Shown in pieces: positions 12,935-57,356 of a stretch of 64,000 nucleotides of DNA. How positions within the stretch are numbered: the first letter of the stretch is position 1; each line of letters begins with the position of its first letter. The notes beneath the pieces are model-generated. The model did no database searches, was not told the DNA's origin, and saw only the letters and a list, made by a program, of their open reading frames with translations. The stretch covers positions 750,035 through 814,034 of the forward strand of contig JAXMGN010000001.1 in the NCBI GenBank assembly GCA_046347205.1. Reading direction: 5' to 3'. Both the position numbers and the translations under genes were made by a program. Origin of the DNA: Pseudomonadales bacterium (GTDB lineage: Bacteria > Pseudomonadota > Gammaproteobacteria > Pseudomonadales > UBA7239).

Positions 12935-12985
12935 TGGATGCCGCTATACTGCGCGTAAACCTATTTGTTGATGGTGCAATCCGTG

Positions 12986-14524
12986 ATGCGCAACTCCCAC
13001 CGTTTTTTTCTCGCTCTCTGCCTGCTATTTTTTGGTATTACTGCTGCGGTGCAAGCTGCACCTGATGACAAAGATGGCGATCGCCTCAGCGATGCATTGG
13101 AACAAACCGTGGGACGTAACCCAGAGCGCCCTGATTATCTCATCAGCACCGGCTATCGCCGCAGTTGTGCGCTGGATGACAGCGGCGTGCAGTGTTGGGG
13201 CGATGAACCGCGCATGGGTATCACGCCCGGATTTAGTCACCCGTTTGTACTCAGTGTTAGCAATACCCACGCCTGCGTGATTGGTGACAACGGCGTGCAA
13301 TGTTGGGGCGACAACACGCACGGCGAAACCACTGTGCCGCCACTCAACAAACCGGAAGCCGTGAGTGCCGGTTGGTATCACAGTTGTGCCGTTGATGCGA
13401 AAGGCGTGAAGTGTTGGGGCGATAACAGTCGCGGCCAATTGGATGTGCCGAAAAAATTAAAAAATGTAAAACAAATTGCCGCGGGTGGATTTCACACCTG
13501 TGCGTTGGATGAAAAAGGTGTGACCTGTTGGGGCGATAACTGGGCGCATCAATTGGATGTGCCGGCGTTGGTGAATCCACATCAAATTACATCAGGCAAT
13601 CATCACAGTTGCGCCTTGGATGATCGCGGTGTCGTGTGTTGGGGTGATATTTATTTTGATGAAACCGAACGCAATCCCGATGTGATGAAAAATTATAAAA
13701 CACGCGTGGTGCCATTGCTGCAAAATCCGCGACAAGTCAGCGCCGGTTTCGATCACACTTGCGCAGTGGATGACAGCGGCGTGGTGTGTTGGGGTGCGCG
13801 CGATCGCGGGCAGTCCGATCCACCGAAAGATTTATTAAAACCACCGGTGGCAGCGATCAGCGCGGGTTGGTACAGCACTTGTGCACTGGATGCGGTCGGC
13901 GTGAAATGTTGGGGCGACAACACCAATAAACAAACCGAAGTGCCGCCTTTGTTTTTTGATGCGGATCGCGATGGCATTCCCGACGACAAAGACAATTGCC
14001 CACATATCGCCAATCCGGATCAGCTGGACACCGACAAAGATGGACAAGGTGACGCCTGCGATCCTGATGACGATAACGACGGCGTAGCCGATGATTTGGA
14101 TAATTGCCCATTAGTGGCCAATCCAGACCAAAAAGATAGCGATGGCGATAAAGTGGGCGACGCTTGCGATGCTTTTCCCAATGATCCGACAGAGTGGTCT
14201 GACAGGGACGGCGACGGTGTCGGTGACAACCGCGACAACTGTCCTGATGTCGCCAATCCCGATCAAAAAGATACGGATGGCGATAAAATTGGCGATGCCT
14301 GTGACACCGATAACGACAATGACGGTGTGCCAGACGACAAAGACAATTGCCCTCTGGTTGCGAATCGCGATCAAAAAGATACTGACAAAGATGGGATGGG
14401 CGATGCTTGTGACGACGACGATGACAACGACGGCATTCCCGATAAGCAAGATAAAGAGCCGTTAAAACCGGCGAAAAAGAAAGCACCGACAAAAACAGCA
14501 GCAAAAATCGGTGTGTCGCAGTAA
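12986..14524 (+). CDS. secreted protein with RCC1-like beta-propeller repeats and C-terminal thrombospondin type-3 (calcium-binding) repeats
   Basis: Signal peptide is [26 protein letters not shown]. There are seven repeats centred on V.CWGDN..GQ..VP with HSCAL/HTCAL strands, an RCC1/ATS1-like pattern. Repeated D.D.DG..D..DNCP...N.DQ.D.D.D..GD.CD units follow. Upstream alternative starts exist at 12965 and 12971. Confidence 0.8.
13958..14452 (+). repeat. intragenic tandem coding repeats (TSP type-3 units)
   Basis: Units recur at DNA level, for example gacaattgccc...gccaatcc.gatcaaaaagata..gatggcgataaa.t.ggcgatgc.tg.ga. They encode the DNCPxxANPDQKDxDGDKxGDACD repeats. Confidence 0.8.
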
Positions 14525-16469: not shown

Positions 16470-16877
16470 ATGCGGCTTCATGGTTTTTTTCGTGCAATAG
16501 GGCTGCTGTGTGCAGGCGTGGCATCTTCTGCCGTAGCAGATAACTGTGTGTTGCGCCCCCTTGCCGAATCCATGCAGCGGCCCGCTGTGCGCGCCGATGA
16601 ACCGCAGCACACAGAATGGGAATACCGCCGCCAACTCCTGCGTTTTGCCAACGGTTTTTACGGTGCAATCTCACAAGATATTTTGCGTGGCAACGGAGAA
16701 TATTTACAAACTTTGCAGCAATTGATGGGTTCAGAAGGTGAGCCGTGTGTGCCTATGTACCGTCAGCTGTTGCTGCAAGAACCCAGCAGCCAAGATTTTG
16801 CTCTAGCGCTGTGGTCGTGGCGCATAAACCACGGTGCTAACACTGCGCCAGCGCAGGATTGGGGCAGCGTGCATTAG
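16470..16877 (+). CDS. hypothetical secreted protein
   Basis: 135 aa with signal peptide MRLHGFFRAIGLLCAGVASSAVA/DN. It is divergent from the DUF4105 gene. The segment RGNGEYLQTLQQLMG faintly recalls DUF3015, which is not enough for a call. Confidence 0.45.
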   Translation: MRLHGFFRAIGLLCAGVASSAVADNCVLRPLAESMQRPAVRADEPQHTEWEYRRQLLRFANGFYGAISQDILRGNGEYLQTLQQLMGSEGEPCVPMYRQLLLQEPSSQDFALALWSWRINHGANTAPAQDWGSVH

Positions 16878-16942: not shown

Positions 16943-17425
16943 ATGCCAGTGCAGTACGGAACCAAACGCAGAGTGCCGCCAACGAAAGTGCTGAATGGAA
17001 AGGCGGCGTTAGCTTATGTGGATGATGTCGCCATCATGATTACCACCATCGAAAAATGGACAGACAAAGACATTGTGCAATTAATGGAAGAGAGCGCGCG
17101 TCTGGGCAAGCGCGTTACTGCGCCGGCGGCGATTACGCATTTTATGGGCGAGACTTTGGGCGCAGCGGCTTCACAGCGCAAGTTAGTGGTGGACTGGATG
17201 GCGACCAATAATATCGACCCTACGCCGCGCACCATCACCATGACCGATTCTGCCTTGATACGCGCCGCGTTGACGGCGTATTCGTGGCTCACCAAAACCG
17301 AGATGAAAGCGTTCGCGCAAAAAGATTTGCTGACTGGATGTCAGTGGTTAGTGCGCGATTTAGAGACAAAACCTGAGGATGTTTTACAAGCTGTGCAGGG
17401 CTGTTACAAGTTATTAGGCAAATAA
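16943..17425 (+). CDS. uncharacterised ~160-aa protein, paralog 1 of 3
   Basis: Shares with the next two ORFs the blocks GKA..A.V.DV..I...I.KW, QRKL...W, R.ITM.DS.LIR..LTAYSWLTKTE.KAFA.KD and LLGK. Confidence 0.7.
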   Translation: MPVQYGTKRRVPPTKVLNGKAALAYVDDVAIMITTIEKWTDKDIVQLMEESARLGKRVTAPAAITHFMGETLGAAASQRKLVVDWMATNNIDPTPRTITMTDSALIRAALTAYSWLTKTEMKAFAQKDLLTGCQWLVRDLETKPEDVLQAVQGCYKLLGK

Positions 17426-17439: not shown

Positions 17440-17925
17440 ATGTCCAGTTATGATTATTCCAAGACAGTGGTTAAACCCACCTTGCTACTAAAAGGTAAAG
17501 CTTGTTTTGCACAGGTACATGATGTCACGTTGATCGTTAGTGATATTCCAAAATGGAGCAATGAGTTGGTGCTGGAATATCTCAATGGCATGATAAAAAT
17601 TGGCGGCGGTGTGTCTGTTCCTGCTAGCGCCGCCATTTTTTTGGGCGATAGCTTTGATGCCGGGCAGCGCAAATTGTCTGCAGACTGGATTGCCGAGAAC
17701 GGGTTTGAGCCGGCAAAACGCATCACCATGATTTCGGATTCGCTGTTAATTCGCGGCTCGTTAACAGCGTATTCGTGGTTGACGAAAACCGAAGCCAAAG
17801 CATTCGCCATGAAAGATCACGCGGCTATGTGCGATTGGATAGCTAGGGGAAGAATAGCTAAAGCAGAGGATATTCACGCGGCACTACTGGCATCTTTCCA
17901 GTTGCTAGGAAAGAAGTTGCCGTAA
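17440..17925 (+). CDS. uncharacterised ~160-aa protein, paralog 2 of 3
   Basis: 161 aa. The start lies 14 nt after paralog 1. By eye it is roughly three quarters identical to paralog 3. Confidence 0.7.
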   Translation: MSSYDYSKTVVKPTLLLKGKACFAQVHDVTLIVSDIPKWSNELVLEYLNGMIKIGGGVSVPASAAIFLGDSFDAGQRKLSADWIAENGFEPAKRITMISDSLLIRGSLTAYSWLTKTEAKAFAMKDHAAMCDWIARGRIAKAEDIHAALLASFQLLGKKLP

Positions 17926-17999: not shown

Positions 18000-18488
18000 A
18001 TGCTGAGTGACGCTGAATACAGCAAAATAGCGGTTAAACCCACCGCCCTGCTAAAAGGCAAGGCGTGCTTTGCGCAAATACATGATGTCACCATGATTGT
18101 CAGCACCATTCCCAAATGGAACGATGCGCTGGTGTTGGAGTATCTCAACGAAGTTACCAAAGTGGGCGGAGGCGTGTCTGTGCCAGCCAGTGTGGCGATT
18201 TTTTTGGGCGATGTGTTTGACGCAGGGCAGCGCAAATTGGCGACAGAATGGACAACAGCTCAAGGATTTGAACCCGCAAAACGTATCACCATGATTTCTG
18301 ATTCCCTGCTCATTCGCGGCGCACTCACCGCGTATTCTTGGCTGACAAAAACTGAAGCAAAAGCATTTGCCATGAAAGACCATATGGCTATGTGCGAGTG
18401 GATTACACGCGACCGCATCGCCAAAGCACCTGATGTGCATGAAGCACTGGCAACGTCCTTTCATTTGCTGGGCAAAAAACTGGCATAA
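18000..18488 (+). CDS. uncharacterised ~160-aa protein, paralog 3 of 3
   Basis: 162 aa. Same conserved blocks as the other two copies. A strong terminator follows. Confidence 0.7.
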   Translation: MLSDAEYSKIAVKPTALLKGKACFAQIHDVTMIVSTIPKWNDALVLEYLNEVTKVGGGVSVPASVAIFLGDVFDAGQRKLATEWTTAQGFEPAKRITMISDSLLIRGALTAYSWLTKTEAKAFAMKDHMAMCEWITRDRIAKAPDVHEALATSFHLLGKKLA

Positions 18489-18539: not shown

Positions 18540-19472
18540 TCAGCTTTCGCTGTTTTCCGCTTTAGCTGCACGGCGCGCTTCGCGTTCGGCTTTTTTGCGA
18601 GCTTTTTCTTCTTCCTGCGCTTTCTGTTCAGCCAGGCGCGCTTTTTGGTCGTCGCTCATTGGGGTGAGCAGCAAGCCATCGCGGTGCGCTTGGATATACT
18701 TGCCGCATTTCTCGTCTTCACCCATCAGCGCGCGAATGGCGTAAATCATGGCGCGCATTTCTTTCACGCGTGGGTTAATCATGAAGCCTTCCATGCCATT
18801 CGCTGCGAGCATCGCTACATAAGTGCGGTTCATCAGTGCGCGGTGTGGCATGCCGAAGCTGACGTTAGACAAACCGCAGAAGGTGCGCACTTGTGGGAAT
18901 TCGGCTTTCATCATTTGCAATAAATCAAAACTGATGGGGCCCACGTTGTCGTCTGTGCCCAGCGGCAGAATGAGCGGATCAATCCACAAATTGTGATCGG
19001 GCACGCCTGCATCGCGCGATTTCGCCACCAATTCTTTGCAGATAGCAAAACGGCCTTTGGCGGTGTGGTTGATGCCGGTGTCATCCAACAACAGGGCCAC
19101 AATGCCAGTGTTGTATTTGGCAGCCAGCGGCAACAAGTTTTGCGCGCTGCCTTTTTTATTGTTGATGGAGCTGAGTACTGGGTACTGACCTTTCCAATCA
19201 ATCGTTTCCATTGCGTGTTTGAGCGCGGGTGGGTTGGAGCTATCCAACACCATCGGAATATTAGTGACAGCGCGCACGCTTTCAATCATCCACGGCAAGT
19301 CAATCAACTCGTCGCGGCCGGTCACTTGTGCATTGAGATCCAAATAATCGGAATCTGCTTCCACTTGCTCTAAAGCAACTTTTTGGATGTAAGCAGTGTC
19401 ATGCGCTTTTACCGCATCACAAATTGCAGGAATGGTGGCGTTCAATGATTCGCCGATAACAACAACGGCCAT
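18540..19472 (-). CDS. pterin-binding methyltransferase (methyl-corrinoid:tetrahydrofolate methyltransferase, MtgA/AcsE/MetH-pterin-domain-like)
   Basis: MAVVVIGESLNATI...YLDLNA...MVLDSSNP...ICGLSNVSFGMP-type blocks are characteristic of the pterin-binding (DHPS-like) TIM barrel. GGAGAA sits 5 nt before the ATG. It carries an unusual Lys/Glu/Ala-rich C-terminal tail. Confidence 0.8.
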   Translation of the reverse strand: MAVVVIGESLNATIPAICDAVKAHDTAYIQKVALEQVEADSDYLDLNAQVTGRDELIDLPWMIESVRAVTNIPMVLDSSNPPALKHAMETIDWKGQYPVLSSINNKKGSAQNLLPLAAKYNTGIVALLLDDTGINHTAKGRFAICKELVAKSRDAGVPDHNLWIDPLILPLGTDDNVGPISFDLLQMMKAEFPQVRTFCGLSNVSFGMPHRALMNRTYVAMLAANGMEGFMINPRVKEMRAMIYAIRALMGEDEKCGKYIQAHRDGLLLTPMSDDQKARLAEQKAQEEEKARKKAEREARRAAKAENSES

Positions 19473-19510: not shown

Positions 19511-19545
19511 AAAATAAAAAAGGCTTCTCTCAATAGAAAGAAGCC
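19511..19545 (-). terminator. intrinsic-terminator-like hairpin inside the operon (possible attenuator/processing site)
   Basis: The minus strand reads GGCTTCTttctattgagAGAAGCC followed by TTTTTTATTTT. It lies in the 89-nt gap between the MtmB-like and pterin-binding genes. Confidence 0.55.
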
Positions 19546-19561
19546 TCGCTGTGGTGTGAAC

Positions 19562-20950
19562 TTATTTCAGCGCTTTCAGACCCATGTCATACAGTTCTTG
19601 TTTGACACGGTTGTAGTCTTCCATCAACGCTGGTTTCGGTTCGCATTTTTCGCAATCGTAAGCATCTTTGAAGTGGCGCGGGCCAGCACCGCTGGCTTTG
19701 TGTTTCTCTGTTTCTTCGTTGCGTTTGGCGAAGATTTTGTTCATCAAAATGTCCGCTTCTTTGGGGTCTTGTACTTCCAAAGTCGCCTGCATCACTTCGC
19801 CAACCAAACGGGTTTCCAAACCGGAGTGACCGCCGATCCACACATAACCCATGCCGTTGATAGTGTTGGACACTGTCATCGCCTGCGCCTGCCAGATACC
19901 GGCGTAAGTGCGCCAGTACGGCTCCATGCCGGCACACACTGAAGCGATCGGTAGTTTGACGTGGCGTTCAAACGCGCGTGTGGCAGCAGCAACAGCCCAC
20001 TGCGTTTCTTGATCGGACCAAGTACCGTCCAAGTGGTTGGCGAACATTTGCGTCATGCCGCCGTGGCCATAAGACAACTGACCGAGGGCGTTGCACACAA
20101 TGCCGATGGCCGTCTCTGCGCCGTCACGACAAATGGCGCCGGTGAGCGATACGCAAGATGTCCACGGCTCAATACCGCGATCTTGGCAATATTTCGCCAT
20201 CATGAACGCGTTCCAGTCGATTTTCATTTCAGGAATGATGTGGATGCCGATTTGTGTGTTCCATGTTTTGCGGCGATCAGGATTGTGATCATCGATGCAC
20301 GCAAAAGAAGCGGCGGCAGACGATGCGGTGCACAACAAACCTTGGTGCATACCAGGGCGACCTTCTTCGCGACAGATGCGTTGAATCTGTGCGCATTCCC
20401 ACTGTGCGGCGTACATTTCAGACAATGTGCCCGCTTTGGCAGAGTGACCGTGGATCACTTCGATACCGCCGGTAATGCCCATCGCTTTATTGGTTTTTTC
20501 TTTTACGAAAGAACGGATGTACGGGTCGTGCCAATCTTCACCGATAACACCGCAAGGACCGCCGGCAAGAATTGGCAATTTTTTCTCGAACGCTTTACGG
20601 TAGGTGTATTCGATACGATCTGCGCCTTCACCAAACTTCGATACGCGCGGATTCGAGTTGTAGAACTCTGCCGTGTCGCGAATTTCCTGTTCGGTCAGCG
20701 CGATAACGCGAAACGTGTTGTTGTGATAAATGCCGCACTCTGCCAACAATTTAACCGCCGCGTTGAAAACGCCGTCAGCAATCTCGTCAGAAATGACAGT
20801 ACTGTCCGGCGTGTATTTCACACCGAACTCTTCAGCGGCTTTGCGCAAGGTGCGTGACCACTTGATGTCAAACTTGCTGGATTTTTCAAATACTTCGCCA
20901 GTTTCAGCGCGGTTTTGAAACTCCATAATATCCATTAATTTACCGGCCAT
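19562..20950 (-). CDS. MtmB (monomethylamine methyltransferase) family protein lacking pyrrolysine; substrate:corrinoid methyltransferase of unknown substrate
   Basis: Several blocks resemble my recollection of Methanosarcina MtmB: KLLAECGIY, EEGRPGMHQG (cf. AGRPGMGV-Pyl-G), GLETRLVGEVMQAT, and the C-terminal ...YNRVKQELYDMGL. The ORF is uninterrupted, with no in-frame TAG. The ATG at 20950 overlaps the corrinoid-protein stop (TAATG) and is preceded by GGAGAG, so the track start at 20992 is rejected. Confidence 0.75.
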   Translation of the reverse strand: MAGKLMDIMEFQNRAETGEVFEKSSKFDIKWSRTLRKAAEEFGVKYTPDSTVISDEIADGVFNAAVKLLAECGIYHNNTFRVIALTEQEIRDTAEFYNSNPRVSKFGEGADRIEYTYRKAFEKKLPILAGGPCGVIGEDWHDPYIRSFVKEKTNKAMGITGGIEVIHGHSAKAGTLSEMYAAQWECAQIQRICREEGRPGMHQGLLCTASSAAASFACIDDHNPDRRKTWNTQIGIHIIPEMKIDWNAFMMAKYCQDRGIEPWTSCVSLTGAICRDGAETAIGIVCNALGQLSYGHGGMTQMFANHLDGTWSDQETQWAVAAATRAFERHVKLPIASVCAGMEPYWRTYAGIWQAQAMTVSNTINGMGYVWIGGHSGLETRLVGEVMQATLEVQDPKEADILMNKIFAKRNEETEKHKASGAGPRHFKDAYDCEKCEPKPALMEDYNRVKQELYDMGLKALK

Positions 20951-21609
20951 TATGCTGCTCTCCCAAAGTGTGCTGCCATAATATTTTTGCAAAGTGTGAC
21001 GGCTTCCATCGCGTTAGGTGCCCAGCCATCAGCGCCCATCATGTTGGATTTTTCTTGATTGGTTTCTGCGCCGCCCATCACCACTTTGAATTGATCTTGC
21101 AGACCCATGTCGTGCACATAGTTCACAACATCGCGGCAGTTGGGGATGGTAGTGACCAAGAACGCCGACAAACCGATGATATTGGCTTTCTTTTCTTTGG
21201 CGGCGTTGATGAATGCCATGGAATCCACATTCACGCCCAGTTGATGCACTTCAAAACCAGCGAGTTCCAATTGCTTGGCGACCAGGCCGTAACCGATGTC
21301 GTGCAAATCGCCAGACACCGCGCCGATCACCACCACGCCTTGGCGCTCGCCATCAGACGATTTAGGCAAATGCGGGTTGATGATTTTGATGCAGTTTTCA
21401 GCGAGTTCACCGCCCACCATCAATTCTGCAAGAAAATATTCTTTGGCTTCAAACAACTGACCAATTTTTTCCAAACCTTTGACGACACCATCTTTTAGTA
21501 CAGACACCGGATCCAAACCTGCGTCCAGACATTCTTGTACCAACTCTGCCGCTTCGTCGTCGAGATCGGCAATCAGTTCGGCAATTTCTGCAATATCGTT
21601 TTGATCCAT
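20950..21609 (-). CDS. cobalamin-binding corrinoid protein (MtmC/MtgC-like)
   Basis: 219 aa. An N-terminal helical cap domain is followed by a Rossmann B12-binding domain. It carries the DxHxxG motif (GAVSGDLHDIGYGLV) and downstream S.L and GG motifs. Confidence 0.85.
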   Translation of the reverse strand: MDQNDIAEIAELIADLDDEAAELVQECLDAGLDPVSVLKDGVVKGLEKIGQLFEAKEYFLAELMVGGELAENCIKIINPHLPKSSDGERQGVVVIGAVSGDLHDIGYGLVAKQLELAGFEVHQLGVNVDSMAFINAAKEKKANIIGLSAFLVTTIPNCRDVVNYVHDMGLQDQFKVVMGGAETNQEKSNMMGADGWAPNAMEAVTLCKNIMAAHFGRAA

Positions 21610-21653: not shown

Positions 21654-23729
21654 TCAGGCTGCTGTGCGTTCGCGGCGGCGGCGGCGTGATTCGGTGTCCG
21701 GTGGCGCGGGCTGAATACCATAGCGCGCCAGCGACGGAAATGCATGTTTTTTGTGGGGCAACAGCGTGGCATCGACAAAGTGCGGGACAAAGCTCGTCTC
21801 GTTGGTCAGTTCCACATAGTGAATGCGGCGTGCGATGTGTTCGGCCTCTTCGCGTTTTGCGCGATTCATCAGTGCCATGCGCGCGCCATCACCGGCGGCA
21901 TTGCCCACCGAGTGTGTGTTTTCAAAGCCAACATCTTGGAACAAGCCAATCATCAGCGAGCGCCGCAGATCAATGTGCGAGCCGAAGGCACCGGCGAGGA
22001 TGACTTTTTCCGGCTTGTCGCGCCCCAGTTTATCGAGCAGCACTTGGATGCCGGAGTACACCGCGGCTTTTGCCAACTGCACATTGCGCACGTCGTCAAT
22101 GGTCATGGTGATGTCGCGACCGAGCGCGGTTTCATTTGCCCATGCAATCACAAATTCGGGATCGCCGTCTTCACCACGCCGCAAACGCGGCGTTTCTATT
22201 TCCATATTGAATTTGCCATTCGTGGCGAGAATACCTGCTTTGTATAACTCACCTACGGCGTCGATGATGCCAGAACCGCATAAACCAATTGCACCAATAT
22301 CAGTCGCTTCTAAACGCGTATTCCACGCTTCTTTACCGATAACCTTAAAACGCACGTCGTAATTTTTTTCCACGCGTACTTTTTCAATCGCACCGCGTGC
22401 GGCGCGCACGCCGTATTTGATATTGGCACCTTCCAATGCGGGCCCTGTGGGGCAAGACGTAGAATAAATTTTGTCGCGGTTGCCCACCAAAATTTCACCG
22501 TTGGTGCCGATGTCCACAATCGCTACCAAGTCATCCGAGTTGTAAGGTTCTAGCGCAATCGCCACAGCGGTATTATCCGCGCCGACAAATCCCGCTTGGT
22601 TGGCCAACAAATGCACATTGATAGATGGCAATACATTCGTTAAATGTAAATCGCGCGCTTTCACGTTTACAGAATGTGCGATGCGTGGATTGAACGGCGA
22701 CTTGCCGAGCGAATCAGGATCCAAGCCGAGAAAAATATGGTGCATACAGGTATTCGCCACCAGCACAATTTCACTGATGTCTTCCGCTGCATAACCAGCG
22801 GATTGCGTCACGCGATCCGCTAATTCGCTCAACGCACCGGTGACTGCTTTTTGCATGCGATCCAGTTTTTCTGGATTATCACTCGCAGCGATGCGGTTCA
22901 TCACGTCGTCGCCGCCAATGCGAATTTGCGGATTCATTAATGATTCTGTTGCCAGTGTTTCACCGGTGTGCATATCACACAAATACGAAGCCATGGTGGT
23001 GGTGCCGAGATCAACCGCCAAGCCCAACCACTGCTGTGTGGTGTCGCCATTTTCAATGCGAATAATTTCACCTGCTTGATTTATTTCAGGTGTCCACACG
23101 GTAGCGGTGAGCTGCATCACTTTTGCGCGCTGTGGTTTGGCGAGATCGCTCAATTGTTTCAACGCAGTGAAATCGATACGCGCATCAATACCGTGTTCAG
23201 CTTTGAGTGCATCGCGCAGGCGTTCGAAATCGCCGCGATGATCTGCCAGTGTTGGTGCTGGTACGGTAACAAAATATTTGCGCGTCACAGGATCGCGCAC
23301 CGCCACCGGTTTACCTGCCGCTTTGCGCACAATCGCTTCGCGCACGCGTGCTTCTTCGGGAACAAAAACCACCGCGTCGCCGAGTACGCGTGTTTGGCAA
23401 CTGAGCCGTTCGCTGGTTTTGTACTGGTGTTTGCGCGCCAGTTTTTGTTCGTGTTCGCTGGCCGGTGTGACGTGTGATTCACGCGAGCGCAGCCCGTGGC
23501 GTGTGGCGGCCGTGACCATATGCCCCATCGACAATTCATGGCCTTCGTCGTCAAAGGTACCGTCCAACACTTGGCATTTGCATTTGGCACAAGCGCCGGT
23601 GCCGCCACAAATGGATTCAATGCCCACGCCCAATTCACGCGCAGCGGTGAGCAGCGGCGTACCAGCGGCAAACTGCCCTTTCTGACCGGAGGGCAGAAAC
23701 AGCACATCGTATTTCTCAACGGCACTCAT
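21654..23729 (-). CDS. RACo-type reductive activator of corrinoid proteins ([2Fe-2S] ferredoxin domain + ASKHA ATPase)
   Basis: The N-terminus is a plant-type ferredoxin (SICGGTGACAKCKCQV). The long C-terminal part has actin/sugar-kinase-like phosphate motifs (LAVDLGTTT, VDIGTNGE). Size (691 aa) and architecture match RACo/COG3894 rather than the RamA 2x[4Fe-4S] type. Confidence 0.8.
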   Translation of the reverse strand: MSAVEKYDVLFLPSGQKGQFAAGTPLLTAARELGVGIESICGGTGACAKCKCQVLDGTFDDEGHELSMGHMVTAATRHGLRSRESHVTPASEHEQKLARKHQYKTSERLSCQTRVLGDAVVFVPEEARVREAIVRKAAGKPVAVRDPVTRKYFVTVPAPTLADHRGDFERLRDALKAEHGIDARIDFTALKQLSDLAKPQRAKVMQLTATVWTPEINQAGEIIRIENGDTTQQWLGLAVDLGTTTMASYLCDMHTGETLATESLMNPQIRIGGDDVMNRIAASDNPEKLDRMQKAVTGALSELADRVTQSAGYAAEDISEIVLVANTCMHHIFLGLDPDSLGKSPFNPRIAHSVNVKARDLHLTNVLPSINVHLLANQAGFVGADNTAVAIALEPYNSDDLVAIVDIGTNGEILVGNRDKIYSTSCPTGPALEGANIKYGVRAARGAIEKVRVEKNYDVRFKVIGKEAWNTRLEATDIGAIGLCGSGIIDAVGELYKAGILATNGKFNMEIETPRLRRGEDGDPEFVIAWANETALGRDITMTIDDVRNVQLAKAAVYSGIQVLLDKLGRDKPEKVILAGAFGSHIDLRRSLMIGLFQDVGFENTHSVGNAAGDGARMALMNRAKREEAEHIARRIHYVELTNETSFVPHFVDATLLPHKKHAFPSLARYGIQPAPPDTESRRRRRERTAA

Positions 23730-24364
23730 GCCATTTCTCCCGTGCCGAGCATATGGCGCGCCACACGCTTCAACTCTTGTTTGTAGGTGTCTAGCCGCGC
23801 CACGGTTTCGCTATTGGCCAGTAGGGGCGCATCCATAATGAAGAACATCGACGCGCCGGCGAGAATCGACCAGAACTGCACGGGGTCGATGGCGCGGAAG
23901 GCGTTACTGCGACGACCTTCATCCAAAGTGCCGATCAAACGGGCAAACATGGGGTCGACAAACTGCTGCACCTCAGGGCGCAAACCGCCCTCGGAGCCAG
24001 CCACTTCGCGCATAAAAAGGCGCATCAGGGTGGGGCGCGCGCCTGCGAAGTCCAACCACGCTTCCACGGCTGCTTCTACACGGGCGGGCAGGTCGAGCGA
24101 GGAATCCAGCGCCGCGCTGATGCGGTCATTGAGCTGGGCAAATAGCCTCTCCAATACTGCGTTGTACAGCGTTTCTTTGTCTTGAAAATGATAGATCACT
24201 GCCGTGCGCGTAATGCCTACGTCTTCGGCGATGTCTTCTAAACGCGTGGGGTAAAAGCCGGTGGCGGCAAAGCGCAGCTCCGCCGCGCCGAGTATCAACT
24301 CGCGTGTTTCGTCCGCCTTAAGGGTAGTGCGGCGGGGGAGTGGGGCTACAGAACTTACTGACAT
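23726..24364 (-). CDS. TetR/AcrR family transcriptional regulator
   Basis: The N-terminal HTH reads ILGAAELRFAATGFYPTRLEDIAEDVGITRTAVIYHFQDKETLY. Its stop overlaps the start of the activase gene by 4 nt. Confidence 0.85.
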   Translation of the reverse strand: MSVSSVAPLPRRTTLKADETRELILGAAELRFAATGFYPTRLEDIAEDVGITRTAVIYHFQDKETLYNAVLERLFAQLNDRISAALDSSLDLPARVEAAVEAWLDFAGARPTLMRLFMREVAGSEGGLRPEVQQFVDPMFARLIGTLDEGRRSNAFRAIDPVQFWSILAGASMFFIMDAPLLANSETVARLDTYKQELKRVARHMLGTGEMA

Positions 24365-27067: not shown

Positions 27068-28444
27068 TTAGTGGGTGGTGGTTTTGCGCGAATTGCGGCG
27101 ACGGCGAGGATTGCGCGGCGCGCTGCTGTCGCGCTGAAGATTTTGACGCAGCTGCTCGCGTTCTTCGGGTGATGCCGTTTGATATTGCGTCCACCAAGAT
27201 CCCAAACCGTTTAACTCCTCGCCGACTTGTTCGCGCAATAGCAAAAAATCATAGGCCGCACGGAAACGCGGATGCTCCAATAATTTGTCTGCGCGACCAC
27301 CCTGTCTGCGCGTCAACTGCCATTGCAGTTCCCAAATTTCTTGCATCGGCAGCGTAAAGCGTCGAGGAATACCGATCAAACGCGTCTGTTCCCCTATCAC
27401 TTTGGGAATAATTTTTTGTAACGCTTGGTGTGGGTGTAAACCGTTGTGCTGTTCGCGTTGTTGCTCTTGTTGCAGCACCGGCCAGAGCAGTGCGGCGTAA
27501 AGAAAAGCTGGCGTAACACGCAAGTCGCCGCGGATGCGTGCATCGGTATTGGTTAGGGCTTGGCGAATCAAGCGATCCGTATAATTTTCCGCTTCAAAGT
27601 AACGCGCAGGCCCCGGAAACAATACATGAAACAAGCGGTACTGCACCATCAACGCAAATGTTTTGACGGCATAACCGGCCAGCAACAATTTGCTCATTTC
27701 ATCGAACAGGCGGGCATTGGAAATATCGCGCAATAGTGGTGCCAGTTGCGCAATGGGTGCGGCAGTATTTTTTTCGATAGAAAAATCGAGCTTGGCGGCG
27801 AGGCGTACAGCGCGCAGCATGCGTACAGGATCTTCACGATAGCGTGTGTCAGGGTCACCAATAATGTGAATGCGACGTTTTTCGATATCGCGTATACCGT
27901 TACAGAAGTCGCGAATGCAATGATCGGTGCCGTAGTACAGTGCGTTGACGGTAAAATCGCGTCGAATCGCATCTTCTTCAATGCTGCCATAGACGTTGTC
28001 GCGCAGTAGCAAGCCGCTGTCGTGCGCGATAGCTTCTTTGCCGTTGGAGGCATTGCTGTGGTGACCACGAAAAGTAGTCACTTCAATCACTTCACGCCCA
28101 AATAGCACATGCACGATGCGAAAGCGGCGGCCGATGATGCGCGAGTGGCGAAACACTTGCCGTACCTGCTCTGGCGTGGCACTGGTGGCTACGTCAAAGT
28201 CTTTGGGGCGCAAGCCTAGGAGTAAATCGCGTACGCCGCCACCGACGATGTGCGCGTCATAGCCAGCCTCTTGCAAGCGACGAATAACCTGCAAGGCGTG
28301 GCTGTTTATTTTTTGTTCAGGAATGCCGTGTTGCTGCGGCGTGATCACGGTAGCAATGGATGATTTGAGACCTTTTTTGCCCGTTTTCCTCGGAGCCTTG
28401 GAGGTTTGTGCGCTAGAAATGCGGCGTTTGATCCAATCGAGCAT
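27068..28444 (-). CDS. pcnB: poly(A) polymerase I
   Basis: 458 aa with IVGGGVRDLLLG, RPKDFDVAT and RRDFTVNALYY, the nucleotidyltransferase head of PcnB, plus a basic C-terminal tail. Confidence 0.9.
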   Translation of the reverse strand: MLDWIKRRISSAQTSKAPRKTGKKGLKSSIATVITPQQHGIPEQKINSHALQVIRRLQEAGYDAHIVGGGVRDLLLGLRPKDFDVATSATPEQVRQVFRHSRIIGRRFRIVHVLFGREVIEVTTFRGHHSNASNGKEAIAHDSGLLLRDNVYGSIEEDAIRRDFTVNALYYGTDHCIRDFCNGIRDIEKRRIHIIGDPDTRYREDPVRMLRAVRLAAKLDFSIEKNTAAPIAQLAPLLRDISNARLFDEMSKLLLAGYAVKTFALMVQYRLFHVLFPGPARYFEAENYTDRLIRQALTNTDARIRGDLRVTPAFLYAALLWPVLQQEQQREQHNGLHPHQALQKIIPKVIGEQTRLIGIPRRFTLPMQEIWELQWQLTRRQGGRADKLLEHPRFRAAYDFLLLREQVGEELNGLGSWWTQYQTASPEEREQLRQNLQRDSSAPRNPRRRRNSRKTTTH

Positions 28445-35556: not shown

Positions 35557-36984
35557 ATGAATCCATCAATTCCGCTTTGTGTAGACATGGATGGCACGCT
35601 GCTAAAAACAGACACATTGCTGGAGTTGTTGTTTGGTGTATTAAAGCAAAAACCTTGGGTTTTGTTGCTTTTGCCCTTGTGGTGTTTGCGCGGCAAAGTG
35701 TTTCTCAAGCGCACGCTCTCGGCGCGTTACTCCTTAAATGTAGCGCTGCTGCCCATCAATGTCGACTTTGTCGATTTTCTGCATGCAGAAAAAACTAATG
35801 GTCGAGAGCTGTATTTAGCGACCGGCGCGTATTTGGATTTGGCGCAGCAAGTTGCGGCACATTACGGAGTTTTTTCTGGCGTATTGGCGACAAGCGACAA
35901 AAATTTAACCGGTCGTACGAAAGCAGAGGCGATGGTCGCCCAGTTTGGCGAAAAGGGTTTTGATTACGCCGGCAACAGTACGGTTGATAGCCCCTGCTGG
36001 GAGCACGCGAGGCAGTGTTATTTGGTAAACGCCAGCCCTGCTGTTGTTAAAAAAATGGTGGCTCTATTTTCTTTTGAAAAAATGTTTGATTTGCGTAGCA
36101 AGATTACGCTAGCTATTTTGTTGCGTGCATTGCGTATTCACCAATGGGCAAAAAATATTTTGGTATTCATTCCCTTGTTGGCATCACACAAGGCTTTAGA
36201 ATTTTCATTACTACAGAACACACTGCTGGCTTTTCTGGCGTTTGGTTGCAGTGCCTCGCTCTCTTATGTCATCAACGATATTGGCGATTTAGACGCAGAT
36301 CGACAGCATCGCAGCAAACACAAACGCCCCTTTGCTTGCGGTGAGCTTTCCATTCCCAATGGTTTGACCCTGGTGTTATTGCTGGCAGCCTGCGCCATTT
36401 TTCTTGTATCTTTTTTGCCGCTACGTTTTGCTAGCGCACTGCTGGCGTATTTGGTCATTACCAATTTGTACAGCATGCGTTTGAAAAACTTTCCTGTTTT
36501 AGATGTCGCTATTCTTGCCGGCCTGTATACGTTGCGCGTGGTGGCAGGTGGCTTGGCTACTGGCGTAGAAGTTTCATTTTGGTTATTGGCTTTTTCTGGT
36601 TTTATTTTCTTTAGCCTAGCGATAGTAAAGAGAGTGTCCGAATTGCTGACGATTGAGGTATCCGGCAATCAACCTGTCCAATGCCGTGGCTATTGGACCA
36701 GCGATATTCCGGTGCTGACCGGATTAGGCACTGCCAGTGCAATGATGGCGGTGTTGGTATTGGCTCTGTATATCAACAGCCCGAATGTGGTGGCGCTGTA
36801 CAGCAGCCCGCGCTATTTGTGGGTGCTGTGCCCAGTGATGGCGCTGTGGCTGGGGCGCGTGTGGCTGATTACCGGGCGCGGCGACATGCACGATGATCCC
36901 GTGGTGTTTGCCTTGCGTGATCGCATGAGTTGGCTGCTGTTTTTGTTGGCGGGCTCATTCATCGTGGTGGGAGCCAATATCTGA
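35557..36984 (+). CDS. HAD-like hydrolase domain fused to UbiA-family polyprenyl-phosphate phosphoribosyltransferase (Rv3806c-like)
   Basis: The N-terminal ~170 aa carry HAD motif I (CVDMDGTLLKTD). The C-terminal part is polytopic, with the UbiA motif YVINDIGDLDADRQHRSKHKRPFACGE and a second Asp-rich region. Confidence 0.8.
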   Translation: MNPSIPLCVDMDGTLLKTDTLLELLFGVLKQKPWVLLLLPLWCLRGKVFLKRTLSARYSLNVALLPINVDFVDFLHAEKTNGRELYLATGAYLDLAQQVAAHYGVFSGVLATSDKNLTGRTKAEAMVAQFGEKGFDYAGNSTVDSPCWEHARQCYLVNASPAVVKKMVALFSFEKMFDLRSKITLAILLRALRIHQWAKNILVFIPLLASHKALEFSLLQNTLLAFLAFGCSASLSYVINDIGDLDADRQHRSKHKRPFACGELSIPNGLTLVLLLAACAIFLVSFLPLRFASALLAYLVITNLYSMRLKNFPVLDVAILAGLYTLRVVAGGLATGVEVSFWLLAFSGFIFFSLAIVKRVSELLTIEVSGNQPVQCRGYWTSDIPVLTGLGTASAMMAVLVLALYINSPNVVALYSSPRYLWVLCPVMALWLGRVWLITGRGDMHDDPVVFALRDRMSWLLFLLAGSFIVVGANI

Positions 36985-38282: not shown

Positions 38283-38304
38283 TCACAAGAAAAAGAGGAT
38301 GGCT

Positions 38305-39042
38305 ATGAACATTGTTATTTTTGGTGCGACATCAGCCATTGCTCAGGCTTGGGCGCGTTTGCGCGCAGCCCAGCGGGACAGTTTTTATTTGCTGGGGCGT
38401 GACAACGCAAGACTAGAAGTCGTTAAACAGGATTTATTGGCGCGCGGCGCGCAGCAGGTGTATTGCCATGTAATAGATCTTGCGCAACCACAAGATTACA
38501 ACGCCTTGACCGCGCAAATTTATGCGCAGAGCGCATCGGTAGATATTGCTCTGTTTGCGCAGGGCAGTATGCCGGAGCAGCGTGAATTGGAAAAAAATGT
38601 CGCGGCCCTGCCAGTCATGTTTACCTTGAATGCACTGAGTTATTTGCAACCAGCCAGTGTGATGGCCGAGCGCATGGCGCAAACCAAAGCTGGCAGCGTG
38701 GTGTTGATTTCCTCACCGGCGGGTGATCGCGGCAGACAGAGCAATTATTTTTACGGCGCGAGCAAGGCGGCAGTGACCGTGTTTGCCGCGGGTTTGCGCA
38801 ATCGCATGGCAAAACATGCCGTGCAAGTGCTCACCATCAAACCAGGTTTTGTGGATACGCCGATGACGGCGGGTATGGATAAATCAGGTCCGCTGTGGGC
38901 GCAGCCTGAACAAATTGCCGTGTGTATCGAAAACGGCATTCAGAAAAAGAAGAATGCGATTTATGCGCCGTGGTTTTGGCAGTACATCATGCTGATTATT
39001 CGCCACATCCCTGAATCTATTTTCAAACGCTTGTTGCTGTAG
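38305..39042 (+). CDS. short-chain dehydrogenase/reductase, DprE2-like
   Basis: It has the Rossmann motif IFGATSAIAQA and the YGASKAA catalytic motif (YxxxK). The ATG at 38305 lies 6 nt after AAGAGG. The track start at 38116 would overlap the DprE1-like gene by about 170 nt. Confidence 0.75.
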   Translation: MNIVIFGATSAIAQAWARLRAAQRDSFYLLGRDNARLEVVKQDLLARGAQQVYCHVIDLAQPQDYNALTAQIYAQSASVDIALFAQGSMPEQRELEKNVAALPVMFTLNALSYLQPASVMAERMAQTKAGSVVLISSPAGDRGRQSNYFYGASKAAVTVFAAGLRNRMAKHAVQVLTIKPGFVDTPMTAGMDKSGPLWAQPEQIAVCIENGIQKKKNAIYAPWFWQYIMLIIRHIPESIFKRLLL

Positions 39043-48348: not shown

Positions 48349-48419
48349 GTGAACCTCAATGCATTGAAAAGAGTGAATGCGTTTGAGGAGGGATACGGAA
48401 CAGGTGAGGCATCCTGCAC

Positions 48420-48655: not shown

Positions 48656-48693
48656 ACCTGTAACAGCGCGCGCACTGTAGACGGGTTGGGCGC

Positions 48694-51686: not shown

Positions 51687-51700
51687 AAAAATTGCTCAGT

Positions 51701-57350: not shown

Positions 57351-57356
57351 CGCAAT

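What the first reader, a model, noticed from the sequence alone, without database searches (positions are those of the whole stretch)
19562..20950. MtmB homolog without pyrrolysine: a sense codon where archaeal MtmB has UAG
The 462-codon ORF is uninterrupted and has no in-frame TAG. No pyl genes are visible in the window. As I recall it, the archaeal active-site segment reads ..GRPGMGV-Pyl-GPETS... Here the matching segment is EEGRPGMHQGLLCTASS, so the Pyl position falls on Gly/Leu. In characterised MtmB enzymes, pyrrolysine is the residue that binds and activates methylamine. Pyl-free relatives with new substrates (glycine betaine, proline betaine, carnitine, gamma-butyrobetaine) have been characterised for the MttB superfamily. 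To my knowledge none has been characterised for the MtmB family. The substrate is therefore probably not free monomethylamine and cannot be predicted from sequence.
Basis: partly seen in the sequence, partly recalled or inferred. Interest (0 to 1): 0.85.

Follow-up and report, generated by a model that had tools for sequence, protein, structure and literature searches.

The report
Pyrrolysine-free MtmB homolog of EmtA/AbeA type
This gene is a genuine pyrrolysine-free relative of the archaeal methylamine methyltransferase MtmB, but it belongs to an already described bacterial branch (EmtA/AbeA) whose studied members move a methyl group on or off steroid hormones using vitamin B12, so it is an uncharacterised member of a known kind, not the first of its kind.

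Summary
Window 19562-20950 (minus strand) encodes an uninterrupted 462-aa full-length MtmB-family protein (Pfam E=9e-38; model TM 0.87 to M. barkeri MtmB). Gly204 sits where MtmB has pyrrolysine.

The novelty claim does not hold. Three Pyl-free MtmB homologs already have functions:
- EmtA, estradiol C-10 methyltransferase (Denitratisoma, 2019/2020).
- AbeA, androgen C-19 demethylase (Phosphitispora, 2025).
- MtqB, tetramethylammonium/choline (Methanococcoides, 2026).

The window protein groups with EmtA (38% identity) and AbeA (34%) at 100% bootstrap. It shares nine active-site-region residues that are invariant or nearly so across 120 clade members, but forms its own subclade (97%).

The gene lies in a cassette: TetR, RACo-type activase, corrinoid protein (57% identical to EmtB/AbeB), MT1, and a methyl-THF-type MT2 (about 35% to AbeC). 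The nearest outgroup (about 50% identical) is fused to Δ4- and Δ1-3-ketosteroid dehydrogenase genes.

Best reading: the substrate-specific subunit of an AbeABC-like corrinoid demethylase that passes a methyl group to tetrahydrofolate. The substrate is probably a steroid-like dienone but is unproven. The host is an uncultured Pseudomonadales bacterium that also encodes cobalamin synthesis. Verdict: new member of a known kind, moderate interest.

The parts
23726..24364 (-). TetR-family transcriptional regulator; first gene of the cassette
   Evidence: Pfam TetR_N plus TetR_C_29. It overlaps the activase gene by 4 nt (23726-23729; coordinates). It is conserved ahead of the cassette in relatives L008, L012, L013 and L016. 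It has no tblastn match (E<=1e-5) to the EmtA locus, including its TetR.
21654..23729 (-). RACo-type reductive activator of corrinoid enzymes, with an N-terminal 2Fe-2S ferredoxin domain (691 aa)
   Evidence: Pfam Fer2 + RACo_linker + Raco_middle + RACo_C_ter. NCBIfam AcsV-like E=1e-123. It is 49% identical to the RACo protein of the EmtA locus and 37% to one beside abeA in Phosphitispora.
20950..21609 (-). Cognate corrinoid protein (CoP, 219 aa; EmtB/AbeB homolog)
   Evidence: Pfam B12-binding_2 + B12-binding. DxHxxG motif GDLHDIG is present. It is 57% identical to EmtB and to AbeB1-4. Best PDB matches are 1Y80 and MttC of 7XCN. Its stop overlaps the MT1 start (TAATG).
19562..20950 (-). The finding: MT1, the substrate:corrinoid methyltransferase. 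A Pyl-free MtmB-family protein (462 aa) of the EmtA/AbeA superclade.
   Evidence: Gly204 is in the Pyl202 column. The signature G204 L205 T208 N231 Q233 H237 W263 S265 Y369 is shared with EmtA and AbeA. Identity is 38% to EmtA and 34% to AbeA. AlphaFold pLDDT is 95, and TM is 0.87 to 1L2Q.
19520..19547 (-). Terminator-like hairpin (12-bp stem followed by a T-run) in the 89-nt gap between MT1 and MT2. Possibly an attenuator or partial terminator.
   Evidence: Consensus scan only. Terminator-like sites were not clearly enriched in the region (15 found against 10.0 +/- 3.1 in shuffles). Function is not shown.
18540..19472 (-). MT2, the methylcorrinoid:tetrahydrofolate methyltransferase (310 aa; AbeC-like)
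   Evidence: Pfam Pterin_bind. NCBIfam PRK07535 methyl-THF:corrinoid methyltransferase scores 261.9 bits, above its cutoff of 259. Best PDB match is 4O0Q/4O1E, the MT2 of a Desulfitobacterium O-demethylase with bound methyl-THF (E=5e-42), followed by MeTr. It is 34-35% identical to the gene directly upstream of abeB in Phosphitispora, which is AbeC.

Best explanation
The gene encodes MT1, the substrate-binding methyltransferase of a three-component cobalamin-dependent methyl-transfer system of the EmtAB/AbeABC type.

Proposed mechanism:
1. The RACo-type activase reduces the corrinoid protein's cobalt to Co(I). This step is ATP-dependent by analogy with related activases.
2. MT1 binds a methyl-bearing substrate in its TIM-barrel pocket. 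There, pyrrolysine and the acidic residues of MtmB are replaced by a clade-invariant set: Gly204, Gln233, His237, Trp263, Ser265 and Tyr369. MT1 transfers the methyl group to Co(I).
3. The pterin-binding MT2 passes the methyl group from methyl-Co(III) to tetrahydrofolate for C1 oxidation or assimilation.
4. The TetR protein presumably gates expression.

Shown: family membership, clade membership, cassette composition, and homology of each part to the Emt/Abe parts.

Inferred: the direction (demethylation, methyl to THF) and the substrate. I think the most likely substrate is a steroid or steroid-like compound with a 1,4-dien-3-one A ring. Its angular methyl would be removed with aromatisation, as in AbeA. 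No assay or structure with ligand exists for this protein, so that identity is a prediction.
For: Family and fold:
- Pfam MtmB full length, E=8.9e-38.
- PDB MtmB E=1.8e-24.
- Model pLDDT 95, pTM 0.93.
- Foldseek best hit 1L2Q, TM 0.87/0.88, rmsd 2.8 A; MttB/MtgB only about 0.5.

Clade:
- P0065 is B9N43_10325, which is EmtA. P0115 and P0116 are AbeA paralogs.
- In an NJ tree (78 taxa, 448 columns, 60 bootstraps), window + EmtA + AbeA is supported at 100%. The window's own 15-tip subclade has 97%.
- G204, T208, N231, H237, W263 and S265 are invariant in 120 of 120 superclade sequences. L205 and Q233 are in 119 and Y369 in 117. The 68 other family members differ at these columns.

Cassette homology: CoP 57% to EmtB/AbeB, RACo 49% to the Emt-locus RACo, MT2 34-35% to AbeC.

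Direction:
- MT2 is a bona fide methyl-THF:corrinoid methyltransferase.
- Jacoby et al. found that methyl transfer onto the phenolic ring is endergonic, needs SAM, and is not supported by methyl-THF. They observed the reverse demethylation in extracts (PMC7448270).
- AbeC passes the methyl to THF (PMC11912376).
- Close relatives carry formate-THF ligase (L013) or MTHFR (L005) near the cassette.

Substrate:
- In the nearest outgroup (about 50% identity), MT1 is followed directly by two flavoprotein genes. One best matches 3-ketosteroid Δ4-(5α)-dehydrogenase (4AT0, E=4e-70). The other best matches 3-oxosteroid Δ1-dehydrogenase AcmB (7P18, E=3e-175). Together these enzymes would make the dienone ring that AbeA demethylates.
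- KstD-like, OYE-type and SDR genes flank MT1 in 28, 26 and 19 of the 70 loci in which an MT1 gene was called (78 loci fetched), including the characterised Abe loci.

Cofactor supply: an oxygen-independent cobalamin biosynthesis operon and two cobalamin riboswitches lie in the same window.
Against: - No steroid-catabolic or ring-dehydrogenase gene lies in the window, or within 10 kb of the cassette in any of the close (81-97%) relatives. The steroid link for this particular subclade therefore rests on bracketing by neighbouring clades.
- The protein is only 34-38% identical to the characterised enzymes. It sits in a separate subclade, and MT1 subunits are the specificity-determining parts.
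- Several genomes carry 3-6 paralogs, which argues for a range of substrates within the superclade.
- MT2-catalysed transfer is reversible in principle, so direction is inferred from thermodynamics reported for another organism.
- I could not read model coordinates, so I did no pocket analysis or docking.
- The roles of MtmB E205/E229/E259 near Pyl are recalled from the structure papers, not re-derived here.
- The tree is neighbour-joining, not maximum likelihood.
Confidence: 0.52

Rival explanations
1. The cassette mechanics are the same (MT1 to CoP to MT2 to THF), but the substrate is not a steroid. Candidates include a methoxylated aromatic, another phenolic or quinoid compound, or an unrelated C-, N-, O- or S-methyl compound specific to this Pseudomonadales lineage.
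For: No steroid-related gene lies beside the cassette in the window or its close relatives. The subclade is distinct (97% bootstrap). Identity to the characterised enzymes is only 34-38%. Multiple paralogs per genome elsewhere imply substrate diversification. MT2's best structural relative is the MT2 of an O-demethylase. The OYE-type neighbour in other loci best matches 2-naphthoyl-CoA reductase, which is not a steroid enzyme.
Against: Both functionally studied members of the superclade act on the steroid A ring. The nearest outgroup is physically linked to Δ4- and Δ1-ketosteroid dehydrogenase homologs. The nine-residue signature is fully conserved with EmtA/AbeA, which suggests shared chemistry.
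Confidence: 0.22
2. It is an EmtA-type enzyme working in the opposite direction. It methylates estrogens at C-10 to give androgens as the first step of anaerobic estrogen catabolism, with methyl-THF supplied through MT2.
For: The host is a proteobacterium, like the known Emt organisms. The TetR + RACo (2Fe-2S) + CoP + MT1 order mirrors the Emt locus. The RACo protein is more similar to the Emt-locus one (49%) than to Phosphitispora's (37%), and MT1 is slightly closer to EmtA (38%) than to AbeA (34%). PMC11912376 proposes that proteobacterial homologs perform retroconversion.
Against: The window has a dedicated MT2. It lacks EmtC, EmtD (luciferase-like), MetH and SHMT, which accompany emtAB. 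Methyl-THF did not support estrogen methylation in Denitratisoma extracts, where SAM is needed to drive the endergonic step. The window protein is outside the EmtA clade.
Confidence: 0.12
3. It is an MtqB-like quaternary-amine (choline/tetramethylammonium) demethylase that feeds THF instead of coenzyme M.
For: MtqB is a Pyl-free MtmB homolog with demonstrated activity (PMC13044021). Bacterial quaternary-amine demethylases of the MttB superfamily use the same CoP + THF-MT2 logic. This last point is general knowledge from the papers cited.
Against: The paper places MtqB near the Pyl-type MtmBs. The window protein is only 26-27% identical to the candidate MtqB-like or Asgard-type proteins P0150, P0165 and P0228, and groups instead with EmtA/AbeA at 100%. 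No betaine/choline-type transporter Pfam family turned up among the annotated genes near the cassette. I could not obtain the MtqB sequence itself, so this test is indirect.
Confidence: 0.05
4. It is a monomethylamine methyltransferase that works without pyrrolysine.
For: The public annotation is 'monomethylamine:corrinoid methyltransferase'. MtqB showed a trace of MMA activity.
Against: The Pyl column is Gly. The columns of MtmB E205, E229 and E259 are C, Q and S, invariantly or nearly so across the clade. No methylamine-related genes are nearby. Characterised clade members act on carbon-bound methyl groups of steroids.
Confidence: 0.02

Closest known systems
AbeABC of Phosphitispora sp. TUW77 (1-dehydrotestosterone C-19 demethylase; PMC11912376)
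   Same: Same three-part architecture: an MtmB-like Pyl-free MT1, a corrinoid protein, and a pterin-binding MT2 that hands the methyl to THF. CoP is 57% identical, MT2 34-35% and MT1 34%. The active-site-region signature is the same. A RACo-type activase lies nearby in one Abe locus.
   Different: The window protein is in a different subclade, and AbeA branches basally. The host is a Pseudomonadales MAG, not a Firmicute with the Wood-Ljungdahl pathway. The window has a single copy, whereas TUW77 has four paralogs. Its cassette has no adjacent OYE, KstD-like or SDR genes. The gene order also differs: in the window, TetR and RACo are fused into the operon. Activity is untested.
EmtABCD of Denitratisoma sp. 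DHT3 / D. oestradiolicum (estradiol C-10 methyltransferase; bioRxiv 10.1101/714501, PMC7448270)
   Same: MT1 is 38% identical and CoP 57%. A RACo-type activase with a 2Fe-2S domain is 49% identical. A TetR-family gene lies in the locus. Both are proteobacterial. EmtA was explicitly noted to lack the amber-encoded Pyl.
   Different: The Emt locus has EmtC, the luciferase-like EmtD, SHMT and MetH, and no dedicated MT2. It uses SAM as methyl donor and runs towards methylation. The window has MT2 and none of those genes, and lies outside the EmtA clade.
MtmB of Methanosarcina barkeri (Pyl-dependent monomethylamine methyltransferase; PDB 1L2Q/1NTH)
   Same: Same fold over the whole length (TM 0.87/0.88, rmsd 2.8 A). 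The GRPGM motif precedes the Pyl position. It partners with a homologous corrinoid protein (3EZX hit).
   Different: Identity is only 23%. Gly replaces Pyl202, and C/Q/S replace E205/E229/E259. The MT2 is THF-type, not the CoM methyltransferase MtbA. The host is bacterial and has no pyl genes.
MtqB of Methanococcoides methylutens Q3c (tetramethylammonium/choline methyltransferase; PMC13044021)
   Same: It is a Pyl-free MtmB homolog of similar length (459 aa) with an adjacent cognate corrinoid protein.
   Different: It is archaeal, coupled to CoM, and reported to branch near the Pyl-type MtmBs. Candidate relatives are 26-27% identical to the window protein and fall outside its superclade. The MtqB sequence itself could not be retrieved, so the comparison is indirect.

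Membership tests
MtmB family in the broad sense (Pfam PF05369; MtmB TIM-barrel fold) | Full-length match to the family profile above the curated cutoff | tested here: met
   130.7 bits against a cutoff of 25, E=8.9e-38, profile positions 1-450 of 450.
MtmB family in the broad sense (Pfam PF05369; MtmB TIM-barrel fold) | Three-dimensional fold matches solved MtmB better than other corrinoid methyltransferase families | tested here: met
   The model has pLDDT 95. 1L2Q gives TM 0.87/0.88 and rmsd 2.8 A. The next best hits, MttB/MtgB, give TM 0.45-0.51.
Pyl-dependent monomethylamine methyltransferase (MtmB sensu stricto) | In-frame UAG decoded as pyrrolysine at the position equivalent to residue 202 | tested here: not met
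   There is no in-frame stop. Gly204 occupies the column.
Pyl-dependent monomethylamine methyltransferase (MtmB sensu stricto) | Acidic residues around Pyl (E205, E229, E259 in M. barkeri; their role is recalled from the structure papers) | tested here: not met
   The columns hold C207, Q233 and S265. Q and S are conserved in 119 and 120 of the 120 clade members.
Pyl-dependent monomethylamine methyltransferase (MtmB sensu stricto) | Pyl machinery (pylTSBCD) and a CoM-specific MT2 (MtbA type) | tested here: not met
   No pyl genes or tRNA-Pyl were found in the window. The MT2 is pterin-binding and THF-type. The rest of the genome was not examined.
EmtA/AbeA lineage of corrinoid-dependent steroid methyltransferases | Monophyly with EmtA and AbeA to the exclusion of Pyl-type and archaeal non-Pyl MtmB homologs | tested here: met
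   100% bootstrap for the superclade in an NJ tree with 78 taxa. The window's subclade is separate from the EmtA clade and from AbeA.
EmtA/AbeA lineage of corrinoid-dependent steroid methyltransferases | Shared invariant residues in the remodelled active-site region | tested here: met
   All nine are present in the window protein: G204, L205, T208, N231, Q233, H237, W263, S265, Y369. Each is conserved in 117-120 of 120 clade sequences and absent from the 68 others. The signature is my own derivation, not a published definition.
EmtA/AbeA lineage of corrinoid-dependent steroid methyltransferases | Cognate EmtB/AbeB-type corrinoid protein and RACo-type activase encoded alongside | tested here: met
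   CoP is 57% identical to EmtB/AbeB and has DxHxxG. RACo is 49% identical to the Emt-locus protein.
EmtA/AbeA lineage of corrinoid-dependent steroid methyltransferases | Methyl transfer to or from C-10 of a steroid A ring | not testable with these tools
   This needs an enzyme assay or growth and induction experiments.
EmtA/AbeA lineage of corrinoid-dependent steroid methyltransferases | Genomic association with steroid ring-modifying enzymes | tested here: not met
   None lie in the window or within 10 kb in the close relatives. The feature is met in the sister group, which has Δ4-KSTD-like and AcmB-like genes, and in the Abe loci. The whole host genome was not searched.
AbeABC subtype (demethylase feeding THF) | Dedicated pterin-binding MT2 in the cluster | tested here: met
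   The 310-aa MT2 at 18540-19472 is 34-35% identical to AbeC. NCBIfam PRK07535 scores above its cutoff.
EmtABCD subtype (SAM-driven estrogen methylase) | EmtC, EmtD and SAM-regeneration genes (MetH, SHMT) in the cluster | tested here: not met
   These are present in L086. They were not found in the window.
MtqB clade (tetramethylammonium/choline) | Clustering with Methanococcoides MtqB (ACT9XH_RS04775) | tested here: inconclusive
   The MtqB sequence could not be obtained. The candidate relatives P0150 and P0165 are 26-27% identical and outside the superclade. The paper places MtqB near Pyl-MtmBs.
MttB superfamily (COG5598; MtgB, MtpB, MtcB, MtyB) | Sequence and fold match to MttB-type methyltransferases | tested here: not met
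   There is no Pfam or NCBIfam MttB hit. Foldseek TM is about 0.5 and identity 9-12%.

The most novel reading that the evidence does not exclude
An uncultured Pseudomonadales lineage, whose exact protein recurs on contigs from 47 blocks of public assemblies, carries a self-contained, THF-coupled AbeABC-like cassette that removes the angular C-19 methyl of dienone androgens. That would be oxygen- and aromatase-independent estrogen formation in a gammaproteobacterium. It would contradict the published expectation that proteobacterial EmtA/AbeA homologs lack MT2 and only run estrogen-to-androgen. Alternatively, this subclade has moved to a new, non-steroid substrate class, which would extend the chemistry of the lineage.
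Probability: 0.35. Interest if true: 0.65.

Novelty: new member of a known kind. Interest (0 to 1): 0.4.

Why it matters
The finding is not the first Pyl-free MtmB, but it is still useful. Only two organisms anchor the EmtA/AbeA lineage experimentally. This gene defines a separate, well-supported subclade in Pseudomonadales. It has a compact five-gene cassette (regulator, activase, corrinoid protein, MT1, MT2) that would be straightforward to express and assay.

If the substrate is an androgen, bacteria other than strict anaerobes with the Wood-Ljungdahl pathway could make estrogens. That bears on endocrine-disruptor budgets.

The wider pattern seen here may matter more. Many paralogs occur in Dehalococcoidia, Binatia and Desulfobacterota MAGs, wired to Δ1/Δ4-ketosteroid dehydrogenase homologs. 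This suggests that corrinoid-dependent removal or addition of angular methyl groups is more widespread than the two model organisms imply.

Tried and rejected
1. Recovering the MtqB sequence for a direct test. Source names for 20 archaeal-type hits gave no Methanococcoides entry. A mass and length fingerprint from the paper's proteomics table (459 aa, 49,382.1 Da) matched none of 348 retrieved proteins. A third database search seeded with the best candidate, P0165, returned no named Methanococcoides protein. The contexts of P0150 and P0228 were uninformative about organism. The MtqB comparison therefore stays indirect.
2. NCBIfam has no model matching MT1 at E<=0.01.
3. The promoter scan was uninformative, with 3 sites against 5.1 expected. 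No cobalamin riboswitch precedes the cassette.
4. I searched the window for steroid-catabolic, C1-oxidation or transporter genes that would name the substrate. I found only housekeeping genes, a CoA-transferase III about 8 kb away and the cob operon.
5. The three small paralogous ORFs beside the cassette have no significant family match, so they could not be tied to the system.
6. I rejected the idea that some 'full-length' archaeal hits with Q, C or K in the Pyl column are truly Pyl-free. Cluster 1 contains 202-aa and 244-aa halves of the same protein, so those are probably read-through or substituted Pyl genes.
7. Pocket inspection and docking were not possible, because model coordinates are not exposed to the script environment.
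Full report
**Observation**

The feature is real and sits at the stated coordinates, but on the minus strand. The reverse complement of 19562-20950 translates to 462 residues with no internal stop. A longer ORF from a TTG at 20992 is possible. The ATG at 20950 is the supported start for three reasons. It overlaps the TAA of the upstream gene (TAATG). A GGGAGAG ribosome-binding site lies about 9 nt upstream. Public gene calls give exactly this 462-aa protein on contigs from 47 blocks of the assembly collection, always in the same neighbourhood.

The protein matches Pfam PF05369 (MtmB) end to end, at E=8.9e-38 and 130.7 bits against a cutoff of 25. It also matches M. barkeri MtmB (PDB 1L2Q/1NTH) over the full length, at E=1.8e-24.

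MtmB reads GRPGMGV-X-GPETS, and the window protein reads GRPGMHQ-G-LLCTASS. Pyl202 falls on Gly204 in the pairwise alignment and in two family alignments.

An AlphaFold model built on a 31-sequence alignment is confident, with pLDDT 95.0 and pTM 0.93. Its best PDB match is MtmB (TM 0.87/0.88, rmsd 2.8 A). MttB and MtgB reach only about 0.5.

The second scenario, recoding, does not apply. There is no in-frame TAG. No tRNA-Pyl was found, and no pyl gene was found among the annotated ORFs. TAG is used as an ordinary stop.

**Surroundings**

The gene is the fourth of five co-oriented genes.

| Gene | Coordinates (minus strand) | Evidence |
|---|---|---|
| TetR regulator | 23726-24364 | |
| RACo-type corrinoid activase with N-terminal 2Fe-2S domain | 21654-23729 | |
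| Corrinoid protein (DxHxxG motif GDLHDIG) | 20950-21609 | |
| MtmB homolog (MT1) | 19562-20950 | |
| Pterin-binding methyltransferase (MT2) | 18540-19472 | |

MT2 reaches the NCBIfam cutoff for methyl-THF:corrinoid methyltransferase. Its best solved relative is the methyl-THF-binding MT2 of a Desulfitobacterium O-demethylase.

The flanks are housekeeping genes: gmk, panB, folK, pcnB, PEPCK and spoT. About 28 kb away lies an oxygen-independent cobalamin biosynthesis operon (CbtA, CbiA, CbiX, CbiC, CbiD, CbiG, CobD and several tetrapyrrole methylases). It has two cobalamin riboswitches. The organism can therefore make the cofactor this system needs.

The closest genome is a MAG named Pseudomonadales bacterium ABC1.141, with 97% protein identity.

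**Relatives and the key turn**

Database searches show a close group (80-94% identity, Pseudomonadales/Cellvibrionales MAGs). A group at about 50% follows (Desulfobacterota-type MAGs). A broad set at 34-45% comes from Dehalococcoidia, Binatia, Desulfobacterales and others, often with 3-6 paralogs per genome.

Two named hits decide the interpretation.
- P0065 is locus tag B9N43_10325 of Denitratisoma sp. DHT3. This is EmtA, the catalytic subunit of the cobalamin-dependent estradiol methyltransferase EmtABCD. It was established by gene disruption and extract assays (bioRxiv 10.1101/714501).
- P0115 and P0116 are AbeA paralogs of Phosphitispora sp. TUW77. There, AbeABC removes the C-19 methyl of 1-dehydrotestosterone to give estradiol and passes the methyl to THF (PMC11912376).

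[quoted passage not shown] A third Pyl-free MtmB homolog, MtqB (tetramethylammonium/choline), was characterised in 2026.

**Placement**

I built a neighbour-joining tree of 78 non-redundant family members (448 columns, 60 bootstraps), rooted on M. barkeri MtmB.
- The window protein, EmtA and AbeA form one long-stemmed superclade with 100% support.
- Inside it, the window protein belongs to a 15-tip subclade (97%).
- This subclade is separate from the EmtA-containing clade (80%) and from the basal AbeA branch.

Pairwise identities are 51% to the sister group, 38% to EmtA and 34% to AbeA. They are 26-27% to the candidate MtqB-like or Asgard-type proteins and 23% to M. barkeri MtmB.

Column analysis compared 120 superclade sequences with 68 other family members, and shows a clade-wide remodelling around the Pyl site.
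- G204 (Pyl202), T208, N231, H237, W263 and S265 (MtmB E259) are invariant in all 120.
- L205 and Q233 (MtmB E229) are in 119, and Y369 is in 117.
- MtmB E205 is C, A, S or P.
- The other family members differ at these columns.

Loss of Pyl is thus an ancestral property of a whole lineage, not a peculiarity of this gene.

The rest of the cassette is homologous too. The corrinoid protein is 57% identical to EmtB and to AbeB1-4. The activase is 49% identical to the RACo protein of the Emt locus. MT2 is 34-35% identical to AbeC. The higher conservation of CoP compared with MT1 fits MT1 being the specificity subunit.

**Mechanism and direction**

The parts specify the classic MT1-CoP-MT2 cycle with reductive reactivation.

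Direction is inferred. In Denitratisoma, methylating the phenolic ring from methylcobalamin is endergonic. It needs SAM and is not supported by methyl-THF, and the Emt locus has MetH and SHMT instead of an MT2. The AbeABC demethylase has an MT2 that loads THF.

The window cassette has the MT2 and lacks EmtC, EmtD, MetH and SHMT. Close relatives also carry formate-THF ligase (L013) or MTHFR (L005) near the cassette. I therefore read it as a demethylase feeding the THF C1 pool.

**Substrate**

No gene in the window names the substrate. Evidence comes from bracketing.

I clustered all ORFs from the 78 genome loci. An MT1 gene was called in 70 of them, and the families below recur next to it.

| Neighbour family | Loci |
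|---|---|
| Corrinoid protein | 36 |
| FAD_binding_2 flavoprotein | 28 |
| OYE + pyridine-nucleotide-disulfide reductase | 26 |
| MT2 | 22 |
| SDR | 19 |
| RACo activase | 14 |

In the sister group of the window's clade, MT1 is followed directly by two flavoprotein genes. One best matches 3-ketosteroid Δ4-(5α)-dehydrogenase (4AT0, E=3.7e-70). The other matches the 3-oxosteroid Δ1-dehydrogenase AcmB (7P18, E=2.8e-175). Together these enzymes would generate the 1,4-dien-3-one A ring, which is AbeA's substrate and EmtA's product.

The characterised Abe loci show the same OYE, KstD-like and SDR company. The window's subclade is thus bracketed by steroid-linked clades on both sides.

Against this, the Pseudomonadales cassette itself never has such neighbours. 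Identity to the characterised enzymes is low. The OYE-type neighbour elsewhere resembles 2-naphthoyl-CoA reductase, not a steroid enzyme. Paralog expansions also imply several substrates.

I put the steroid-type demethylase reading at about one half. The other readings are:
- a non-steroid substrate with the same mechanics, about 0.2;
- an Emt-like reverse direction, about 0.1;
- the amine readings, well below 0.1.

**Comparison and novelty**

The cassette works like AbeABC, and by sequence it belongs to the EmtA/AbeA lineage. It is not a Pyl-type MtmB, not an MttB-superfamily enzyme, and very probably not an MtqB.

One real difference from published expectation stands out. The 2025 paper states that proteobacterial EmtA/AbeA homologs lack MT2 and so probably perform estrogen-to-androgen retroconversion. 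This proteobacterial cassette has an adjacent MT2.

The MtmB family is small overall. There are 368 clusters at 50% identity with E<=1e-3 among 1.84 billion representatives, and 27 at E<=1e-30. Only 2 of 117 full-length representatives carry at least 8 of the 9 signature residues.

**Limits**

- The MtqB sequence could not be retrieved.
- The tree is distance-based.
- The roles of MtmB's acidic residues are recalled from the structure papers.
- The rest of the host genome was not examined.

**Verdict**

It is wrong on novelty. This is a new member of a known kind, and interest is moderate (0.4). That score reflects a distinct, easily testable subclade and an MT2-bearing proteobacterial architecture that the literature did not anticipate.

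Noticed in passing
window 48465-48676 (-) and 61964-62199 (-); operon about 48694-61659 (-): Two cobalamin riboswitches (RF00174, 104.6 and 93.8 bits). One lies ahead of a TonB-dependent receptor (ORF 46423-48675), whose called start overlaps the riboswitch and is therefore probably overcalled; the receptor is BtuB-like. The other lies ahead of an oxygen-independent cobalamin biosynthesis operon: CbtA, CbiA, a TP methylase, CbiX, CbiC, CbiD, further TP methylases, CbiG, CobD and an aminotransferase.
   Followed up: partly
window 16943-17425, 17440-17925, 18000-18488 (+); also 16470-16877 (+): Three tandem paralogs of 160-162 aa lie convergent with the cassette. A fourth, unrelated 135-aa ORF precedes them. 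None has a significant Pfam match. The paralogs are conserved beside the cassette in L008, L012 and L016 but not in L013. Function is unknown.
   Followed up: partly
window 27094-27180 (+): ARAGORN calls a tRNA-Ser(GCT) antisense inside the C-terminal arginine-rich region of pcnB (27068-28444, minus). The Rfam gathering scan reports no tRNA there, so this is probably a false positive.
   Followed up: partly
window 19520-19547 (-): A 12-bp hairpin followed by a T-run lies in the gap between MT1 and MT2, with a weak promoter-like match overlapping it. It could tune MT2 expression relative to CoP/MT1. The evidence is a consensus match only.
   Followed up: no
L020 11371-14814; L018, L021, L023; many Dehalococcoidia, Binatia and Desulfobacterales loci (L025-L085): EmtA/AbeA-type MT1 genes are expanded to 3-6 paralogs per MAG. 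They are wired directly to homologs of Δ4-(5α)- and Δ1-3-ketosteroid dehydrogenases (4AT0 E=4e-70; AcmB 7P18 E=3e-175), OYE-type reductases, SDRs, CoA-transferase III and DUF1638. This suggests that corrinoid-dependent methyl transfer on steroid-like rings is widespread in uncultured sediment and subsurface bacteria.
   Followed up: partly
L006 6085-11162 (protein P0150): A different Pyl-free MtmB type is 41% identical to M. barkeri MtmB, 459 aa long, and has the motif GRPGMGM-EIPEI. It sits between a creatinase-like M24 peptidase plus a 215-aa corrinoid protein on one side and an amino-acid permease on the other. This hints at a creatine/sarcosine-type or choline-type substrate, and it may be an MtqB relative.
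   Followed up: partly
literature (PMC13044021 versus bioRxiv 10.1101/714501, PMC7448270, PMC11912376): [quoted passage not shown] EmtA (2019/2020) and AbeA (2025) are earlier functionally studied Pyl-free MtmB homologs. The MtqB paper does not contain the term EmtA (it is absent from the full-text search for MtmB + EmtA).
   Followed up: yes
L013 1557-3257 (-); L005 20539-21383 (+): In relatives with 81% and 87% identical MT1, the cassette lies within 3-9 kb of formate-tetrahydrofolate ligase and of MTHFR (with the DUF5981/MTHFR C-terminal domain), respectively. The window has neither nearby.
   Followed up: partly
proteins P0121-P0123 and P0125-P0133 (one search hits): Some 'full-length' archaeal MtmB entries carry Q, C or K in the Pyl column. 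One cluster holds them together with 202-aa and 244-aa halves of the same protein. They look like Pyl genes whose UAG was read through or substituted by the gene caller, so they should not be counted as Pyl-free.
   Followed up: partly
window 35557-39042 (+) and 12965-14524 (+): There is a UbiA prenyltransferase + FAD_binding_4 + SDR trio (a DprE1/DprE2-like arrangement). Separately, there is a 519-aa protein with RCC1 and thrombospondin type 3 repeats. Neither is related to the finding.
   Followed up: no
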